Source: a phage. From it: 51,075 bases of DNA. This document shows, piece by piece, positions 30,817-48,968 of this stretch; positions within the stretch are counted from its first letter, which is position 1, and every line of letters starts with the position of its first letter. The notes under the pieces were generated by a model, which saw nothing but the letters and a program-made list of their open reading frames with translations, was not told the DNA's origin and ran no database searches. Where the stretch lies: the sequence record PZ871099.1; one strand, 5' to 3'. Position numbers and translations under genes: made by a program.

Positions 30817-31235
30817 TGGCTATAACTGATAAAGGCGATTATCTTGAGTTTTACGAAAGAGATCCAACCGACACTAGAAAGGAAGTTAATCACCAGATAG
30901 ATAGTTTTCAGTGGTTGACTTATGCTCATCCTTATTTGCTGGCGTGGCATACGGTAAACGAGAATGAGAAGTCTAAAGCAACGGCGATGATTGATCAGCA
31001 GTCCGGCTTGGTTAAGGGAGTAAGCGATTTCATCATCCTGATTGGTTTAAACGGAAAATACCCCTTTGCAGCGATTGAGATCAAACGAGTTAATAAATCA
31101 GGCAAGGGGAAAGCATCACCAGTCAGCGATGAACAAAAGGCTTTTTTGCGTCGAGTTCGCAGCTTAGGAGGATTCGCTGCGGTCGCCTACGGATTTAATC
31201 AGTTTAAGTTGGCTATTGAATACATGCTTAAATAG
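30816..31235 (+). CDS. VRR-NUC domain nuclease
   Basis: 139 aa; PD-(D/E)XK-like core GVSDFIILIGLNGKYPFAAIEIK...DEQKAFLRRVRSLGGFAAVAY. Confidence 0.65.
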   Translation: MAITDKGDYLEFYERDPTDTRKEVNHQIDSFQWLTYAHPYLLAWHTVNENEKSKATAMIDQQSGLVKGVSDFIILIGLNGKYPFAAIEIKRVNKSGKGKASPVSDEQKAFLRRVRSLGGFAAVAYGFNQFKLAIEYMLK

Positions 31236-31251
31236 CACTTTTTGTTAAAAC
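31231..31251 (+). promoter_or_regulatory. conserved intergenic motif copy
   Basis: Stop TAG of upstream gene embedded; 22-nt spacer with inverted repeat; CATAAT; upstream of dam. Confidence 0.6.
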
Positions 31252-40800: not shown

Positions 40801-40823
40801 AGTTTTAACAAAAAGTGCTATTT
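40801..40823 (-). promoter_or_regulatory. conserved intergenic motif copy
   Basis: 22 nt then TACATT, then leader ACACGCATCGACAACGAA. Confidence 0.6.
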
Positions 40824-41085
40824 AGTCCAGGAATTCGATTTCACGCTCGCCAGTTAACGGATCCACAAGCCAGAATCCGAGCGGTTCGCCGTGAACACCG
40901 CCATAGAATCCAAGCGCCGTCAGATCTTCACCTTTAACGAATACCAGGTTTCCGCTACGGCTTACGTGAGACACGTTAACGATAACCGGAAATGTGCGAT
41001 CCTTAAATGCGGGCCGCAGGGCGTAACATCCGTTATTGAGCAAACGTGCTTTGCGCTTAACTGGAATAGGTGCATTAATTTTCAT
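40822..41085 (-). CDS. hypothetical protein
   Basis: 87 aa. Confidence 0.3.
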   Translation of the reverse strand: MKINAPIPVKRKARLLNNGCYALRPAFKDRTFPVIVNVSHVSRSGNLVFVKGEDLTALGFYGGVHGEPLGFWLVDPLTGEREIEFLD

Positions 41086-42680: not shown

Positions 42681-42708
42681 TTGACACGCACCAAATAGCT
42701 TTTATAAT
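42681..42708 (+). promoter_or_regulatory. canonical sigma70 promoter (TTGACA-16-TATAAT)
   Basis: Read directly; start of the plus-strand early cluster; track ATG at 42707 lies in the -10 box so the gene start is placed at 42740. Confidence 0.65.
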
Positions 42709-42739
42709 GAGCCAACAGTCAACAACTGGAGGAAAGGAA

Positions 42740-43204
42740 ATGGAACAGAAAACCACTAAGGACTATTGCGATTGGCTTCGCGAGCTTGGTCGCCGCCTGG
42801 CTAGTGGCGATATTGAAGAGTATAAAATGTCACTAATTGACCTGGCCGGAATGTTAAGCGGTGACGACTGCTACAAGATCACGCGCAGTTCATCCTACAG
42901 CCGGACCATTATCAACCGCGTTCCAGAAGTAAGGGCCGCAGGTCGGGTAAGCATCAAGGTAGAGGAAACGGAAGATGATAAATTTTACGTTTTCCGCATG
43001 GTCCGCGAATCGAAAAGGAAAATCATCACACCCGAAGAATTGCCAGCCATCAAGGCAAGGGCGATCAAAAAGTTTGCCGATCGCTTACTGGCAGCAATCC
43101 CGAACATCGTGGACCTGGAAGGGGATAAACTGGCTGGAGCTTGTGAGGGCGTAAGCCGCTACCAGGATATGATCCGAGAAATCATCAAAGAGGAGGAGCA
43201 ATAA
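42740..43204 (+). CDS. hypothetical early protein
   Basis: RBS GGAGGAAAGG before ATG 42740. Confidence 0.35.
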   Translation: MEQKTTKDYCDWLRELGRRLASGDIEEYKMSLIDLAGMLSGDDCYKITRSSSYSRTIINRVPEVRAAGRVSIKVEETEDDKFYVFRMVRESKRKIITPEELPAIKARAIKKFADRLLAAIPNIVDLEGDKLAGACEGVSRYQDMIREIIKEEEQ

Positions 43205-43464
43205 TGAAAAAGGCATTAATCGGCGTTTTGGCGGCAATGACACTCCTGACCGGATGCGAAAAGGCATCAGAATCAACTGTTGTCGTAGGCGTGGAGTCAG
43301 ATTTCAAAGTCGGCCGCCTGTTCACTGTTGACGGATGCACAGCATACAGATTCTATGATAACGGTCGCGCGATCTATTACACCAACTGCAAAGGCGCAAC
43401 GGATAGCACGTACAACAGCGGAAAGAACGTAATGCACCAGCAAGTCACAACAGATATTAAATAG
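43204..43464 (+). CDS. lipoprotein (putative)
   Basis: Signal peptide with lipobox LTGC (MKKALIGVLAAMTLLTGCEK). Confidence 0.5.
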   Translation: MKKALIGVLAAMTLLTGCEKASESTVVVGVESDFKVGRLFTVDGCTAYRFYDNGRAIYYTNCKGATDSTYNSGKNVMHQQVTTDIK

Positions 43465-43480
43465 CACTTTTTGTTAAAAC
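43460..43480 (+). promoter_or_regulatory. conserved intergenic motif copy
   Basis: Stop TAG embedded; hairpin GCCAGGCgcaaaGCCTGGC; CATAAT; leader CATCGAAACGA. Confidence 0.6.
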
Positions 43481-43536
43481 GCCAGGCGCAAAGCCTGGCA
43501 TAATAGCCTCATCGAAACGAGATTGAGGAAACAAAA

Positions 43537-43722
43537 ATGGCACGTCGCATCACCAAAGACCTTAAAGTCCTGAACAAAGAAAACGTAGTTAAAATCCTGG
43601 TTATCTGGGGCTACAACGAAGAAACAGCAAAGCAGAAGGTCGAGGCGGGTTACGACCTGGCTGTAAAAGCAATGCCAAACGACGACGCAAAAGGCATTGC
43701 AAACTATGTGGCTTTCTTTTAA
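43537..43722 (+). CDS. hypothetical protein
   Basis: 61 aa, motif copy upstream. Confidence 0.3.
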   Translation: MARRITKDLKVLNKENVVKILVIWGYNEETAKQKVEAGYDLAVKAMPNDDAKGIANYVAFF

Positions 43723-43737
43723 TTAGCGGGTGAATAA

Positions 43738-43923
43738 ATGAAAACGAAATTAGTCCATAAATCAGAAATCAAGATCGGCGATACTGTGATTCACAACGGA
43801 GAGCTTAGAACGGTTGGCAAAGAGTCAATAAGCCACGATGAATTTATGGGGATCTTGTTGTTCGGTGACTCTTATCGTCTTGGTTACAAGATGGTTGAGC
43901 TTGTGGAAGAAGTAAAATTCTAA
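43738..43923 (+). CDS. hypothetical protein
   Basis: 61 aa. Confidence 0.3.
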   Translation: MKTKLVHKSEIKIGDTVIHNGELRTVGKESISHDEFMGILLFGDSYRLGYKMVELVEEVKF

Positions 43924-43943
43924 ATAGCACTTTTTGTTAAAAC
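43923..43943 (+). promoter_or_regulatory. conserved intergenic motif copy
   Basis: 22 nt then CATAAT. Confidence 0.55.
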
Positions 43944-44021
43944 TCGAAAACGATAACCAGACATAATAAATCACATAGGGCGGCACGGCGTCGCCCACAA
44001 AACCAATCAGGAGAAATCACC

Positions 44022-44915
44022 ATGTTAAAACTTGCTGACATTAAATTCCCGATCACCTTCGAATCTCGCGGCATTGGTCATTACATTTTTACCGATGAAA
44101 AAACATGCCATAAGGTTGATATGAATAGCGACAAACTAAGCCCATCAACAATGGAGATTGAACACTTTATTGATGCGCACAATACGCATTACAACGCACT
44201 TAAAGACTATGGCTACGCAATGCCAGGCTACACATGCTTGCACTACAAACCATATAAGGGCCAAGTGTTACCAGTGCGCTCACCGGAACGCGCAGAGATT
44301 CCGATGGTCAATATGAAAACCTGCGACTACAAAAAGCTGTGGTGCTTAAGTCTGGACAATATCAAGTATCCGATCACGTTCCACACGACTGGTAAGTCAA
44401 CGATTCGCTACACATCGCGCGACAATGGCGTTTATAGCGATGGTACGAAATCAGAGTTGAAAGTTGATTTCTTTGTCAACGGTCACAACAAATTCAATCC
44501 GCACAACGAAGAGGATAAAGTGTATTACGTGGAAGACATTACAAAACACTTGTTTGGAGAAACACCATTCGGCGGCGGAAAGACGTCAATTCAAAAAATC
44601 ATTGGCGAGGAGATCCACAAAGCGGCTACCGAAATGAAAGCGCCTGGAGGATGGCGTATTGATAAGAGCGCCTTTGCAAATCAAGAAATCGTAACGCAGG
44701 GCGCAATTGAAGATATTCCAGTTGCAGCCACGCTAAAAGGAGTCCGGCTTGATGATGGCACCTGGTATGAACTAACAGCGAAACCAAAGACGATCGAAAT
44801 TCATGATGACGTTGTTATCCTCCTGCTTCACTATGGCAGCACAAAAAACCGTACCGTTGCGGGTGAGATCAACATCAAGCGCGGAACGATGGTTAAGTGG
44901 AAGGTCAAAGTGTAA
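44022..44915 (+). CDS. hypothetical protein with internal tandem duplication
   Basis: Two related segments LADIKFPITFESRG... and LDNIKYPITFHTTG... Confidence 0.4.
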   Translation: MLKLADIKFPITFESRGIGHYIFTDEKTCHKVDMNSDKLSPSTMEIEHFIDAHNTHYNALKDYGYAMPGYTCLHYKPYKGQVLPVRSPERAEIPMVNMKTCDYKKLWCLSLDNIKYPITFHTTGKSTIRYTSRDNGVYSDGTKSELKVDFFVNGHNKFNPHNEEDKVYYVEDITKHLFGETPFGGGKTSIQKIIGEEIHKAATEMKAPGGWRIDKSAFANQEIVTQGAIEDIPVAATLKGVRLDDGTWYELTAKPKTIEIHDDVVILLLHYGSTKNRTVAGEINIKRGTMVKWKVKV

Positions 44916-44935
44916 ATAGCACGAATTGTTAAAAC
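44915..44935 (+). promoter_or_regulatory. conserved intergenic motif copy, GAATTG variant
   Basis: AATAGCACGAATTGTTAAAAC, then TATAAT inside a hairpin loop. Confidence 0.55.
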
Positions 44936-44988
44936 TCAAATGTGGGGCCAGGTATAATGGCCTCACTTTCAACGAGAGGGGAAACGCG

Positions 44989-45216
44989 ATGGAAAGTTTA
45001 ATCATCCAGAAGAAAATGAAGTGCGTCAGTGTAGCGCCAGGTTGCGGCTTTATGTTCACGGTGGGAAATATCTACTCCGCGCAGAAGATGAGAACATCAA
45101 CCGGATCGTTTTACGTCAATAATAATCAGGGATTCCGCATGTTCCTGAACGGTCAAAGTGGCAACGAAATTTGCGCTTACGCCGACCTTATCGCAACCTT
45201 TGAGGAAGTGAAATAA
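44989..45216 (+). CDS. hypothetical protein
   Basis: Start at MESLIIQ after motif copy and RBS. Confidence 0.3.
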   Translation: MESLIIQKKMKCVSVAPGCGFMFTVGNIYSAQKMRTSTGSFYVNNNQGFRMFLNGQSGNEICAYADLIATFEEVK

Positions 45217-45218
45217 TC

Positions 45219-45428
45219 ATGGACCAGAACAAAACAGCAAAATATAAATTCACTGACGACTACGGAGACGCTATCGACGTTTATCAGCGTGGGAATCAGA
45301 TCTTCATAGATGGCACTTTCGAATATGGGCGGATGCCAGACTTTCGGGGAATACTTTCGGCAGAGAGCGCTCGCCGCATGGCGAACGTGTTAAATAAACT
45401 GGCGGCAAAGATTGAGCAATTGCAATAA
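45219..45428 (+). CDS. hypothetical protein
   Basis: 69 aa. Confidence 0.3.
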   Translation: MDQNKTAKYKFTDDYGDAIDVYQRGNQIFIDGTFEYGRMPDFRGILSAESARRMANVLNKLAAKIEQLQ

Positions 45429-45449
45429 AATTTAACAAGCGAGAATGCA

Positions 45450-45629
45450 ATGGAAGATTTTACTATTATTGTGTTGTGCTGGGCGTTATTCATTTTTACA
45501 TGGCTTATCCACGCGGCGCGGCATAGATTCCTGCTGAATTACGACAATTCGTTTGCGGAAGTGTTTTGGAGCATTCCAGCATTTTCCTTGCTAATAGTTA
45601 TCACGGCTGAATATATCCATAGAGCATAA
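45450..45629 (+). CDS. small membrane protein (putative)
   Basis: 59-aa ORF not in the track; two hydrophobic segments. Confidence 0.3.
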   Translation: MEDFTIIVLCWALFIFTWLIHAARHRFLLNYDNSFAEVFWSIPAFSLLIVITAEYIHRA

Positions 45630-45641
45630 CAGGGGCGATAG

Positions 45642-46181
45642 ATGAAAAAGTATACTTTTGAACTGTGGGGAAAGAAGTACGAATTAATAACCAGCAAGCC
45701 GATTGTTATCGTTGACCTGGACGGCACATTATCGGACGGATCGCATCGTTTGCACTTGCTGCCAACTGAAGACTTGCACCTTACGGAATCGTGGAGCGAA
45801 TTTAACAGGGCCGCCGCCGGAGATTCACCGATTAAAAGCACTATCGCGGTTATTAACGGTTTATGGGTGTCGGGATTTGCCATCGTCATCTTGACCGGAC
45901 GCAGCGACGAGGTGCGCTATGAAACCTGCAAATGGTTGAACGAGAACGGCGTGAAGTTTGACGAAATCATCATGCGCCGCCAGGAGGACAACCGAAAGGA
46001 TACGGTTATTAAAGAAGAAGCCTTGCGCGCTATTGGCCTGGACAACATTGTTTGCGCCTTTGACGATTCGCCGAACGTGGTTAAGCACTTCCGCAGCTTG
46101 GGGATCACAACCTATCAGGTCACGGAATACGACAAGCCACACGCTCACCTGCAATCTCACGGCGTGGAGTGTTTAAAATGA
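45642..46181 (+). CDS. HAD-superfamily phosphatase (nucleotidase or polynucleotide 3-phosphatase-like)
   Basis: HAD motif I IVDLDGTLSDG; later DD segment. Confidence 0.55.
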   Translation: MKKYTFELWGKKYELITSKPIVIVDLDGTLSDGSHRLHLLPTEDLHLTESWSEFNRAAAGDSPIKSTIAVINGLWVSGFAIVILTGRSDEVRYETCKWLNENGVKFDEIIMRRQEDNRKDTVIKEEALRAIGLDNIVCAFDDSPNVVKHFRSLGITTYQVTEYDKPHAHLQSHGVECLK

Positions 46182-46337
46182 CTTGGTTGCTTTTAATCTT
46201 TGTCACAAGTTACAACTCCGCAGCTATTGAGTCGCAGGAGTTCCACGGCGAATCAAGATGCCAGGAAGCGCGAAAGCAAGTTATTCTCCACATGTCAGAT
46301 AGCGGGAAGGATGTAACAGCGTTATGCGTTCGTAAAT
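46178..46337 (+). CDS. small secreted/membrane protein (putative)
   Basis: About 52 aa ORF not in the track, hydrophobic N-terminus; ATGA overlap with HAD gene stop. Confidence 0.25.
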
Positions 46338-46355
46338 AGCACTTTTTGCAAAAAC
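46335..46355 (+). promoter_or_regulatory. conserved intergenic motif copy, variant
   Basis: AATAGCACTTTTTGCAAAAAC, then a hairpin with TATAGT in the loop. Confidence 0.5.
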
Positions 46356-46410
46356 AGATTATCGGGCTTGCGGTATAGTAAGCCCATCAACAACAAACGA
46401 GGATTAAATC

Positions 46411-46674
46411 ATGGCTAACAAGATCGAATTTTTTAAAGCGGTAGACATTATTGATGGCGCTCCGAGCTTCTTTGCGATCCATTCTATTGACGGCAAGGAT
46501 ATTGGGTATAACGTTATCCTTAGCGATGGAGTATCAAAACTTAGTGACCTGGTGGGTCGAGTTGCGTCAGACGGCAAATGCTCATGCCCCGATTCGCAAC
46601 GAGAGCCACGCCGCCGCGACATGGTAGAGCCTGTTCTGCTTTACACCCTGGTAGTAGAAGGAGAAAATAAATGA
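46411..46674 (+). CDS. hypothetical protein
   Basis: 87 aa. Confidence 0.3.
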   Translation: MANKIEFFKAVDIIDGAPSFFAIHSIDGKDIGYNVILSDGVSKLSDLVGRVASDGKCSCPDSQREPRRRDMVEPVLLYTLVVEGENK

Positions 46675-48658: not shown

Positions 48659-48949
48659 ATGGCAAACAAAACTTACCGCAAACTACTGGTTAACGCTTTT
48701 GAAAACATCGCGCAGTGTAACAAGTGGAACGACTCTAAACACTCGCCAGTCACAATGAAGCGCGCCGGATTCAAAAATGCTCGTTCATGGGCGAGAGCTT
48801 TCGCAGCTTGCTATATGCCGGATGGTGGACTAGGAGCGATGAACGATTTTTTGATCAACATGATAGAGGAAGCTGCGCGAGAGGATCGACCGCTGACACA
48901 GCGAGATTTTGATGATTTCGCGCGCGATGAGCTTTACTATCTGGGCTAA
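48659..48949 (+). CDS. hypothetical protein
   Basis: 96 aa. Confidence 0.3.
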   Translation: MANKTYRKLLVNAFENIAQCNKWNDSKHSPVTMKRAGFKNARSWARAFAACYMPDGGLGAMNDFLINMIEEAAREDRPLTQRDFDDFARDELYYLG

Positions 48950-48968
48950 TAGCACTTTTTGTTAAAAC
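48948..48968 (+). promoter_or_regulatory. conserved intergenic motif copy
   Basis: Hairpin AAGGGCAtttggtaaagTGCCCTT. Confidence 0.55.

What the first reader, a model, noticed from the sequence alone, without database searches (positions are those of the whole stretch)
44022..44915. 297-aa early protein built from an internal tandem duplication
Two segments of about 110 residues start with closely related sequences (LADIKFPITFESRGIGHYIFTDEK... and LDNIKYPITFHTTGKSTIRYTSRDNG...), indicating a duplicated domain of unknown function. It is the largest unassigned protein in the plus-strand early cluster.
Basis: seen in the sequence. Interest (0 to 1): 0.45.

Follow-up and report, generated by a model that had tools for sequence, protein, structure and literature searches.

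The report
Two-module variant of phage T1 gp70
This 297-residue protein of a T1-like coliphage really does carry two diverged copies of a small ~68-residue domain, followed by an unrelated small beta-barrel domain; it belongs to an uncharacterised accessory family found only in T1-like phages, and its function is still unknown.

Summary
The ORF (44022..44915, +, 297 aa) is real and under purifying selection. The repeat is significant, but the homologous unit is about 65-70 residues (aa 1-69 and 108-175), not 110. The last 77 residues (221-297) are an unrelated small beta-barrel domain.

The window is a near-complete Warwickvirus (Drexlerviridae) genome. The protein is the two-module form of the T1 gp70 / TLS gp06 / phrog_7116 family, whose usual form has one N-module plus the C-domain. 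Copy number runs from 1 to 3 among close relatives. Phage JLBYU16 has a one-module gene whose junction lies in the shared PITF-coding microhomology. Both modules also occur apart or fused to other partners.

The gene sits between two copies of a 19-nt promoter-like repeat. My best guess (about 0.4) is a non-enzymatic, modular host-interaction or counter-defence binder. The result is a well-defined but ordinary uncharacterised phage gene.

The parts
43924..43942 (+). Upstream copy of the 19-nt direct repeat ATAGCACTTTTTGTTAAAA. It starts 1 nt after the stop codon of the preceding gene.
   Evidence: 21 copies in the window against 0.3 expected. The same element precedes the orthologues in other phages. 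It was described in phage TLS as a 21-nt direct repeat of unknown role (PMC11447400).
43962..43967 (+). -10-like hexamer CATAAT, 19 nt after the repeat. Together with the repeat it is the putative promoter of this gene.
   Evidence: Nearly every copy of the repeat is followed 18-20 nt later by a (C/T)ATAAT-like hexamer. Coordinates were read. Promoter function is inferred, not shown.
43978..43996 (+). 7-bp G+C-rich hairpin (GGGCGGC-ACGGC-GTCGCCC) in the presumed 5' UTR, with no T-tract after it.
   Evidence: RNA fold -14.1 kcal/mol, z = -2.2 against shuffles. Its role is unknown.
44010..44013 (+). Ribosome-binding site GGAG, 8 nt before the ATG.
   Evidence: Read directly from the sequence.
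44022..44915 (+). Whole ORF, 297 aa plus stop. It is the two-module member of the T1 gp70 / phrog_7116 family.
   Evidence: dN/dS is 0.16-0.25 over 10 full-length orthologues plus a truncated 51-aa copy (L013).
44022..44228 (+). N-module copy 1 (aa 1-69), of the 'HN-HY' subtype. Predicted four-strand sheet followed by a helix.
   Evidence: HMM hit on aa 1-56 at 1.6e-13. hhalign covers aa 1-69. AF2 pLDDT is 74-89.
44100..44147 (+). Fastest-evolving loop of copy 1 (aa 27-42).
   Evidence: Highest column entropy among 120 orthologues. Highest dN/dS of any region, 0.29-0.51, still below 1.
44229..44342 (+). Linker 1 (aa 70-107). It is modelled as disordered, yet it is the most constrained segment of the protein.
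   Evidence: pLDDT is 29-44, but entropy is 0.12. dN/dS is 0.05-0.11 with normal dS, so the constraint acts on the protein.
44343..44546 (+). N-module copy 2 (aa 108-175), of the canonical 'HN..NP.N' subtype.
44547..44681 (+). Linker 2 (aa 176-220). Low-confidence helical segment, variable in length and sequence across the family.
   Evidence: pLDDT is 37-44. This region is gapped and variable in alignment A1.
44682..44912 (+). C-terminal domain (aa 221-297), a six- or seven-strand small beta-barrel with the motifs IEDMPxGA, IEVHDD and ExNIKRGT.
   Evidence: AF2 pLDDT is 82-96. Conserved columns are listed. Only weak SH3/chromo-barrel-like Foldseek hits were found (E 0.19, probability 0.94). 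The domain also occurs alone or behind other N-termini.
44916..44934 (+). Downstream copy of the repeat (ATAGCACGAATTGTTAAAA). It starts 1 nt after the stop codon and is followed by TATAAT at 44953-44958, the putative promoter of the next gene.
   Evidence: The repeat takes the same position in the orthologous loci L003, L005, L009, L013 and L016.

Best explanation
**What is shown.** The gene encodes a soluble, cytoplasmic, modular accessory protein of T1-like phages. It is the two-module form of the T1 gp70 / TLS gp06 / phrog_7116 family.

The layout is: N-module 1 (aa 1-69), a constrained linker (70-107), N-module 2 (108-175), a variable linker (176-220), and an unrelated small beta-barrel C-domain (221-297).

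The number of N-modules changes between close relatives (1, 2 or 3). The junction in the one-module relative lies in the conserved IK(F/Y)PITF-coding stretch shared by the copies. The N-module and the C-domain also exist as independent, shuffled units in other Drexlerviridae proteins.

The gene lies between two copies of a 19-nt promoter-like repeat. It probably has its own host-RNA-polymerase promoter.

**What is inferred.** The protein is most likely not an enzyme. It more probably acts as a binder or adaptor made soon after infection. The N-modules, variable in number and with one fast-evolving loop, would recognise a host or host-defence component. The conserved C-barrel would supply a common partner-binding or oligomerisation function. 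That would make it a host-takeover or counter-defence accessory factor, dispensable in the laboratory.

My confidence in the architecture and family assignment is about 0.9. My confidence in this functional reading is about 0.4, which is the figure given below.
For: **Repeat and domain boundaries:**, with the AF2 models.

**Family and synteny.** T1 ST70 (161 aa) and TLS gp06 (188 aa) each have one N-module plus the C-domain, and each lies 0.6-1.6 kb upstream of the polynucleotide kinase gene. phrog_7116 models the one-module form.

**Copy number.**
- One module: JLBYU16, same genus, 190 aa. Its first 39 nt equal the start of repeat 1, and the sequence then continues as repeat 2. The crossover lies in CCGATCACnTTC.
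- Three modules: P0046, intact on a syntenic contig.
- Two modules have arisen in other lineages as well: P0143, P0145, P0149 and P0150.

**Module shuffling.** P0155 has an N-module with a different C-terminus. P0134 and P0160 have other N-termini followed by the C-domain. Stand-alone C-domains of 66-81 aa also exist.

**Selection.** dN/dS is 0.16-0.25 overall. Linker 1 is the lowest (0.05-0.11) and the repeat-1 loop the highest (0.29-0.51).

**Accessory and phage-only distribution.**
- The family is found in 227 phage records, against about 700 records whose large terminase is at least 60% identical to this phage's.
- No Klebsiella phage carries it.
- No close relative was found in one genome from each of 185,579 bacterial and archaeal species.

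**Arguments against an enzyme.** There is no catalytic family or fold match. The HDD motif is not invariant. The protein tolerates one to three modules.

**Neighbourhood.** The cluster is headed by a perfect TTGACA-16-TATAAT promoter. In TLS the family member lies between stp and pnkP. From knowledge of phage T4, those are anti-restriction and tRNA-repair functions.

**Physical properties.** The protein has no signal peptide or transmembrane segment, and its pI is 8.2.
Against: There is no direct functional evidence of any kind. No literature was found on any family member.

dN/dS never exceeds 1, so an arms-race interface is not demonstrated. All neighbouring genes are also of unknown function, so guilt by association is weak.

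Conserved glutamates in the C-domain (E230, E259, E282) and the HN..NP.N motif could mark a ligand or catalytic site in a fold not yet represented in the PDB. The AlphaFold database could not be searched, so a structural relative there may have been missed.
Confidence: 0.4

Rival explanations
1. It binds nucleic acid or the transcription or replication machinery. The small SH3/Tudor/Sm/KOW-like barrels would bind RNA, DNA or RNA polymerase and redirect host gene expression early in infection.
For: The weak structural neighbours of both domains are Tudor, chromo, Sm/LSm, KOW and NdhS-type small barrels. Many members of those fold classes bind nucleic acids or polymerases (general knowledge). 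The protein is mildly basic (pI 8.2; linker 1 pI 9.3). T1-like phages encode no RNA polymerase of their own and must use the host enzyme (PMC11447400).
Confidence: 0.15
2. It is an enzyme with a new fold. One candidate is the unidentified early function that degrades host DNA in T1 and TLS; another is a small-molecule or nucleotide-modifying enzyme.
For: Both T1 and TLS degrade host DNA, the responsible early gene is unknown (PMC11447400), and both carry a family member. Polar residues are conserved: HN..NP.N in the N-module, and E230, E259 and E282 in the C-domain.
Against: No catalytic fold or family matches. Each domain has only about 70 residues. HDD varies across the family (VDSE, VDGE, INGN, VSDG). 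Module number varies from 1 to 3, and the modules occur apart.
Confidence: 0.1
3. It is a virion or tail-fibre component, as one GenBank record annotates it.
For: The orthologue in phage phiE31-2 is labelled 'tail fiber protein'.
Against: Every other orthologue listed is annotated as hypothetical. The gene lies in the small-gene cluster upstream of the polynucleotide kinase gene and far from the tail genes. It has no similarity to fibre proteins in the PDB or BFVD. Its parts are small globular modules joined by flexible linkers, not a fibrous or trimeric fold.
Confidence: 0.03
4. The repeat is a chance similarity, or the ORF is not a real gene.
For: The identity between the two copies is only about 28-30%.
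Against: Profile statistics give E 4e-19 and HMM hits of 1e-13 and 1e-25. No shuffle reaches the observed score. dN/dS is 0.16-0.25. The ORF is conserved in more than 100 phage genomes.
Confidence: 0.01

Closest known systems
Phage T1 gp70 (ST70, YP_003874), TLS gp06 and SECphi27 gp30: the PHROG family phrog_7116, function unknown
   Same: It has the same N-module (MLKLxxIxFPITF...HN..NP.N) and the same C-terminal barrel (IEDMPxGA...IEVHDD...NIKRGT). It takes the same position upstream of the polynucleotide kinase gene in the small-gene cluster that runs towards the terminase genes.
   Different: T1 and TLS carry one N-module (161-188 aa). This protein has a second, diverged 'HN-HY' module at the N-terminus plus a strongly constrained 38-residue linker.
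Gp54 of phage Bas11, a small beta-barrel accessory protein of Drexlerviridae that triggers CapRelSJ46 (PMC11578894)
   Different: No sequence relationship was detected: profile searches of the PDB sequences did not recover it. Gp54 is a 66-residue single domain encoded elsewhere in the genome.
SH3, Tudor, chromo-barrel and Sm-like small beta-barrels
   Same: The C-domain and, more loosely, the N-module have the size and strand order of these barrels. The weak top hits are the Tip60 chromo-barrel, NdhS, Spindlin and LSm proteins.
Promoter/stem-loop-flanked mobile gene cassettes of T4-type phages (PeSLs; Arbiol et al. 2010, recalled from memory)
   Same: The gene is bracketed by identical promoter-like repeats that start right after stop codons. 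The repeat often has a hairpin between it and the -10 hexamer. The gene content between repeats differs between related phages.
   Different: Exchange of cassettes through these repeats was not tested here. The repeat sequence is specific to Drexlerviridae, and its role is still open in the literature.

Membership tests
T1 gp70 / phrog_7116 family | An N-terminal module of about 70 residues with FPITF and HN..NP.N | tested here: met
   An HMM built from single-module members hits aa 1-56 (1.6e-13) and aa 109-172 (1.3e-25). phrog_7116 matches at E 2.4e-76.
T1 gp70 / phrog_7116 family | A C-terminal barrel of about 75 residues with IEDMPxGA, IEVHDD and ExNIKRGT | tested here: met
   Alignments A1 and A3. 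The A3 HMM hits the ORF at 2e-32; this is partly circular because the query is in A3. T1 and TLS members align over the whole domain.
T1 gp70 / phrog_7116 family | Location in the Drexlerviridae small-gene cluster upstream of the polynucleotide kinase gene | tested here: met
   Seen in the window, JLBYU26, SH2, T1, SECphi27 and TLS.
SH3-like / chromo / Tudor barrel superfolds (C-domain) | Significant structural superposition on a known member | tested here: inconclusive
   The best Foldseek PDB hit is 4qqg (Tip60 chromo-barrel): E 0.19, probability 0.94, target TM-score 0.50. The C-domain was not searched on its own.
Tail fibre proteins | Similarity to known fibre or receptor-binding proteins, and a position in the tail module | tested here: not met
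   No fibre hits in the PDB or BFVD. The gene is not in the tail region. Only one record uses this label.
HNH / beta-beta-alpha-Me nucleases (prompted by the HN...N motif) | A match to HNH profiles, and a catalytic His at the end of strand 1 before the helix | tested here: not met
   No Pfam or NCBIfam hit at E up to 10. In the model the HN pair lies at the C-terminal end of the helix, not before it.
P22 coat protein I-domain | Significant sequence or fold match | tested here: not met
   phmmer gives only E 0.18 on aa 206-259. It is absent from the top 50 Foldseek PDB hits and from the profile searches.
Known anti-phage defence proteins (PADLOC) | A match to a PADLOC model | tested here: not met
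   No hits at E up to 1.
Known anti-defence proteins (Ocr-like DNA mimics, signal sponges, Acr) | Homology to a characterised inhibitor, or the strong negative charge of a DNA mimic | tested here: not met

The most novel reading that the evidence does not exclude
The roughly 68-residue FPITF/HN..NP.N module is a new fold family that T1-like phages use as a plug-in recognition unit. Recombination at the conserved PITF-coding stretch adds or removes copies (1 to 3). Exchange of cassettes bounded by the direct repeat swaps the module's partners. Together these would let the phage retune, within a genus, which host or defence proteins the shared C-terminal barrel is brought to. That would be a copy-number-variable counter-defence adaptor.
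Probability: 0.2. Interest if true: 0.55.

Novelty: new member of a known kind. Interest (0 to 1): 0.3.

Why it matters
T1-like phages are common laboratory and therapeutic coliphages, and about half of their genes have no assigned function (PMC13164509). This work turns one 'hypothetical protein' into a defined object:
- two independent domain families with exact boundaries;
- natural variants with one, two and three modules in otherwise about 90% identical proteins;
- a linker under very strong constraint;
- its own putative promoter.

The natural variants form a ready-made allelic series for genetics and pull-downs. If the protein proves to be a counter-defence factor, the gain and loss of modules by repeat recombination would be a neat example of how phages retune specificity. 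As it stands, it is an ordinary uncharacterised accessory gene.

Tried and rejected
**Searches that could not run or gave too little**
- Foldseek against afdb50 is not installed, so the AlphaFold database was never searched.
- A profile search with the C-domain alone returned only 13 short proteins and no informative fusions. I therefore did not spend the third large search on the N-module.

**Homology ideas tested and dropped**
- N-module against C-domain: not related (hhalign probability 0.3%).
- C-domain against the neighbouring 61-residue ORF: not related.
- P22 coat I-domain: E 0.18 by sequence and not supported by fold or profile searches.
- Nova-1 KH domain: E 0.087-0.87, treated as chance.
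- HNH and PD-(D/E)XK nucleases, prompted by the HN..N and HDD...E..K motifs: rejected on topology, on the lack of profile hits, and because HDD is not invariant.
- A link to the CapRel trigger Gp54 of Bas11: no sequence similarity.

**Artefacts set aside**
- P0151 and P0153, the multi-stretch hits of the representative search, are unrelated repetitive proteins.
- P0121 and locus L014 (375 aa, probably the Shigella phage 2019SD1 entry in BFVD) are frameshifted, duplicated assemblies, not true multi-module proteins.

**Other negatives**
- The window has no Stp-like peptide of the kind found next to TLS gp06.
- The genome has no second copy of either module.
- Four literature searches found no study of any family member.

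Full report
**Where the window comes from.** The 51,075-bp window is essentially a whole genome of a T1-like coliphage (Drexlerviridae, Tempevirinae, Warwickvirus). The stretch 43000-46500 is 92-97% identical to phages such as vB_EcoS-95, tunus, SECphi27 and JLBYU26. The window starts at the terminase genes. The plus-strand cluster from 42.7 to 51 kb therefore corresponds to the left-end small-gene cluster of T1 (ST77 to ST55), which runs into the terminase genes.

**The observation.** A GGAG ribosome-binding site lies 8 nt upstream.

The two N-terminal-like stretches are related well beyond chance:
- BLASTP of aa 1-107 against 108-297 aligns aa 2-54 with 109-156 at 30% identity, E 3e-5.
- The local alignment score of 60 is not reached in 5000 shuffles (mean 28, sd 4.6, maximum 57), nor in 300 whole-protein shuffles.
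- A profile of repeat 1 aligns to a profile of repeat 2 with probability 99.1%, E 4e-19, over 64 columns.
- As a non-circular test, an HMM built only from single-copy homologues of other phages hits the protein twice, at aa 1-56 (37 bits, 1.6e-13) and aa 109-172 (76 bits, 1.3e-25).

The homologous unit is thus about 65-70 residues, not 110.

**Anatomy.** AlphaFold2 gives three confident domains joined by two low-confidence linkers:

| Segment | Residues | pLDDT |
|---|---|---|
| N-module 1 | 1-64 | 74-89 |
| Linker 1 | 65-103 | below 50 |
| N-module 2 | 108-175 | 90-95 |
| Linker 2 | 180-218 | below 50 |
| C-domain | 221-297 | 82-96 |

- The two N-modules share one topology: four short strands followed by an 11-15-residue helix that ends in the conserved HN.
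- Modelled alone, N-module 2 reaches pLDDT 94.7 and pTM 0.84.
- The C-domain is an all-beta barrel of six or seven strands. It is not detectably related to the N-module.
- The protein has no signal peptide or membrane segment, and its pI is 8.2.

**Family.** phmmer against 1.84 billion cluster representatives found only 42 relatives. tblastn finds the family in 227 phage records, all T1-like phages of Escherichia, Shigella, Salmonella, Citrobacter and a few Vibrio and Cronobacter.

The usual form has 160-190 residues, with one N-module, a variable linker and the C-domain. It corresponds to aa 108-297 here. T1 gp70 (ST70, 161 aa) and TLS gp06 (188 aa) are such members, and both lie just upstream of the polynucleotide kinase gene. 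phrog_7116, of unknown function, models this one-module form.

The family is accessory:
- About 700 records hold a large terminase at least 60% identical to this phage's, including about 440 Klebsiella phages. No Klebsiella phage carries the gene.
- No close relative was found in one genome from each of 185,579 bacterial and archaeal species.

**Copy number and shuffling.**
- The metagenomic relative P0046 (374 aa) has three intact modules, and its contig has the same gene order.
- JLBYU16, of the same genus, has a 190-residue one-module gene. Its first 39 nt are identical to the start of repeat 1, after which it follows repeat 2. The junction lies in the shared CCGATCACnTTC (PITF) stretch. 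This is what a recombination event between the two repeats would leave, although the direction (loss or gain of a module) cannot be told.
- Two-module forms also occur in distant lineages: P0143, P0145, P0149 and P0150.
- Repeat 1 is closer to the single modules of other phages (46% to P0123) than to repeat 2 (about 28%). The pair is therefore old, or was assembled from diverged alleles.
- The N-module occurs with a different C-terminus in P0155.
- The C-domain occurs alone (66-81 aa) or behind other N-termini. In P0134 the N-terminus is half of a T1 ST71-like protein.

**Selection.** I compared 11 orthologous coding sequences; one of them, L013, is truncated to 51 residues and contributes only to the start of repeat 1. 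dN/dS is 0.16-0.25 overall, so this is a working gene.

The loop at aa 27-42 of repeat 1 evolves fastest, with dN/dS of 0.29-0.51, though never above 1. Linker 1, which the model leaves disordered, is the most constrained part: dN/dS is 0.05-0.11 with ordinary dS, so the constraint acts on the protein. Only four other sequences in the alignment used for the model cover repeat 1 and linker 1. The low pLDDT of that linker may therefore reflect shallow data rather than disorder.

**Comparison with known families.**
- Nothing matches in Pfam, NCBIfam or PADLOC.
- PDB sequence searches with the single protein or with profiles give no hit better than E 0.087.
- Foldseek against the PDB gives no hit below E 0.19. 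The top hits are chromo-barrel, NdhS, Tudor and SAWADEE barrels, and they cover about 60 residues, the size of a single domain. I attribute them to the all-beta C-domain, but the output does not give query coordinates.
- BFVD returns only uncharacterised Drexlerviridae proteins.
- The AlphaFold database library was not available.
- One GenBank record calls the orthologue a tail fibre protein. Nothing here supports that label.

**Regulatory context.** A 19-nt repeat, ATAGCACnnnTTGnTAAAA, occurs 21 times in the window against 0.3 expected, always on the strand of the local genes. One copy starts 1 nt after the stop of the upstream gene (43924-43942). Another starts 1 nt after the stop of this ORF (44916-44934). 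The orthologous loci show the same arrangement.

Nearly every copy is followed 18-20 nt later by a (C/T)ATAAT-like hexamer, often with a short hairpin in between. Together with the preceding TAA, the repeat closes all three reading frames in about half of the copies (11 of 21). The element was reported in TLS as a direct repeat of unknown role (PMC11447400). The fixed -10 spacing seen here argues that it is a promoter.

For this gene the -10 would be CATAAT at 43962-43967. A 7-bp GC hairpin follows at 43978-43996. The cluster as a whole is headed by a perfect TTGACA-16-TATAAT promoter at 42681-42708.

**Interpretation.** The architecture is solid. The function is not known, and I found no paper on any family member.

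Several features fit a non-enzymatic binder or adaptor used in host takeover or counter-defence better than they fit an enzyme or a structural protein:
- tolerance of one to three modules;
- independent occurrence of both domains;
- restriction to lytic phages of a few host genera;
- one fast-evolving loop;
- no catalytic signature;
- a neighbourhood that in TLS includes stp and pnkP.

I put this reading at about 0.4. The rivals are a nucleic-acid or RNA-polymerase binder (0.15), an enzyme with a new fold, such as the unidentified host-DNA degradation function of T1 and TLS (0.1), and a virion protein (0.03).

**Verdict.** The protein contains, rather than consists of, a diverged tandem pair of a domain of about 68 residues. 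It is the two-module variant of the uncharacterised T1 gp70 family. This is ordinary uncharacterised phage sequence, now well delimited, with a useful natural series of one-, two- and three-module variants. Interest is 0.3.

Noticed in passing
window, 21 sites, e.g. 2093-2111, 31232-31250, 43461-43479, 43924-43942, 44916-44934, 48949-48967: The 19-nt direct repeat ATAGCACnnnTTGnTAAAA occurs 21 times (0.3 expected), always on the strand of the local genes and usually starting right after a stop codon. A (C/T)ATAAT-like hexamer follows 18-20 nt later, often with a hairpin in the spacer. The repeat carries stop codons in two frames, and the preceding TAA closes the third in 11 of the 21 copies. 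It looks like a family-specific promoter and cassette boundary. TLS authors reported the repeat but left its role open.
   Followed up: partly
window 42681-42708 (+): A perfect sigma-70 consensus promoter (TTGACA, 16 nt, TATAAT) lies at the head of the plus-strand small-gene cluster, in the gap between the divergent minus- and plus-strand clusters.
   Followed up: no
window 40822-41085 (-); L004 (T1) 2344-2832: The 87-residue ORF is homologous to each half of T1 ST71 (E 9e-19 and 0.002), so ST71 is itself an internal duplication of a small 'LLSNGGY...FPVIV' domain. In P0134 one such half is fused to the C-domain of the gp70 family.
   Followed up: partly
L016 (phage JLBYU16) 1201-1773: This phage of the same genus carries a one-module, 190-residue version of the gene. 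Its junction lies exactly in the PITF-coding microhomology shared by the two repeats.
   Followed up: yes
L017 (phage TLS) 1865-2573: In TLS the family member gp06 lies 62 nt downstream of an stp gene. The peptide MSSWHNEHVMQFYRHRIKKMLNSTNC is annotated as an activator of the host PrrC anticodon nuclease. The window has no Stp-like peptide.
   Followed up: partly
window 43204-43464 (+): This 86-residue ORF has a lipoprotein-type signal sequence (LLTGC). It is annotated DUF4884 in relatives and lies inside the small-gene cluster.
   Followed up: no
GenBank records MG065671, MG065679, MG065681, MG065685 ('Campylobacter phage' A120, A13a, A139, A112a): These records, labelled as Campylobacter jejuni phages, encode proteins 79-86% identical to those of this E. 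coli T1-like phage. The host label looks doubtful and may reflect contaminating coliphages.
   Followed up: no
L014 1501-2820; P0121: In this record the gene is frameshifted and partly duplicated, giving an apparent 375-residue protein. It is most likely an assembly or sequencing artefact, not a multi-module variant.
   Followed up: partly
window 44343-44546 (repeat 2) compared with the rest of the gene: Among the five closest genomes, synonymous divergence in repeat 2 is about four times lower (dS 0.056) than in the flanking parts (0.2-0.33). This suggests recent recombination of that segment and a mosaic history within the gene.
   Followed up: no
window 42707-43204 and 43537-43722 (+): The neighbouring genes match only families of unknown function: DUF7174 (E 4e-51) and DUF7421 (E 4e-42). 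The other small ORFs of the cluster match PHROGs of unknown function.
   Followed up: no
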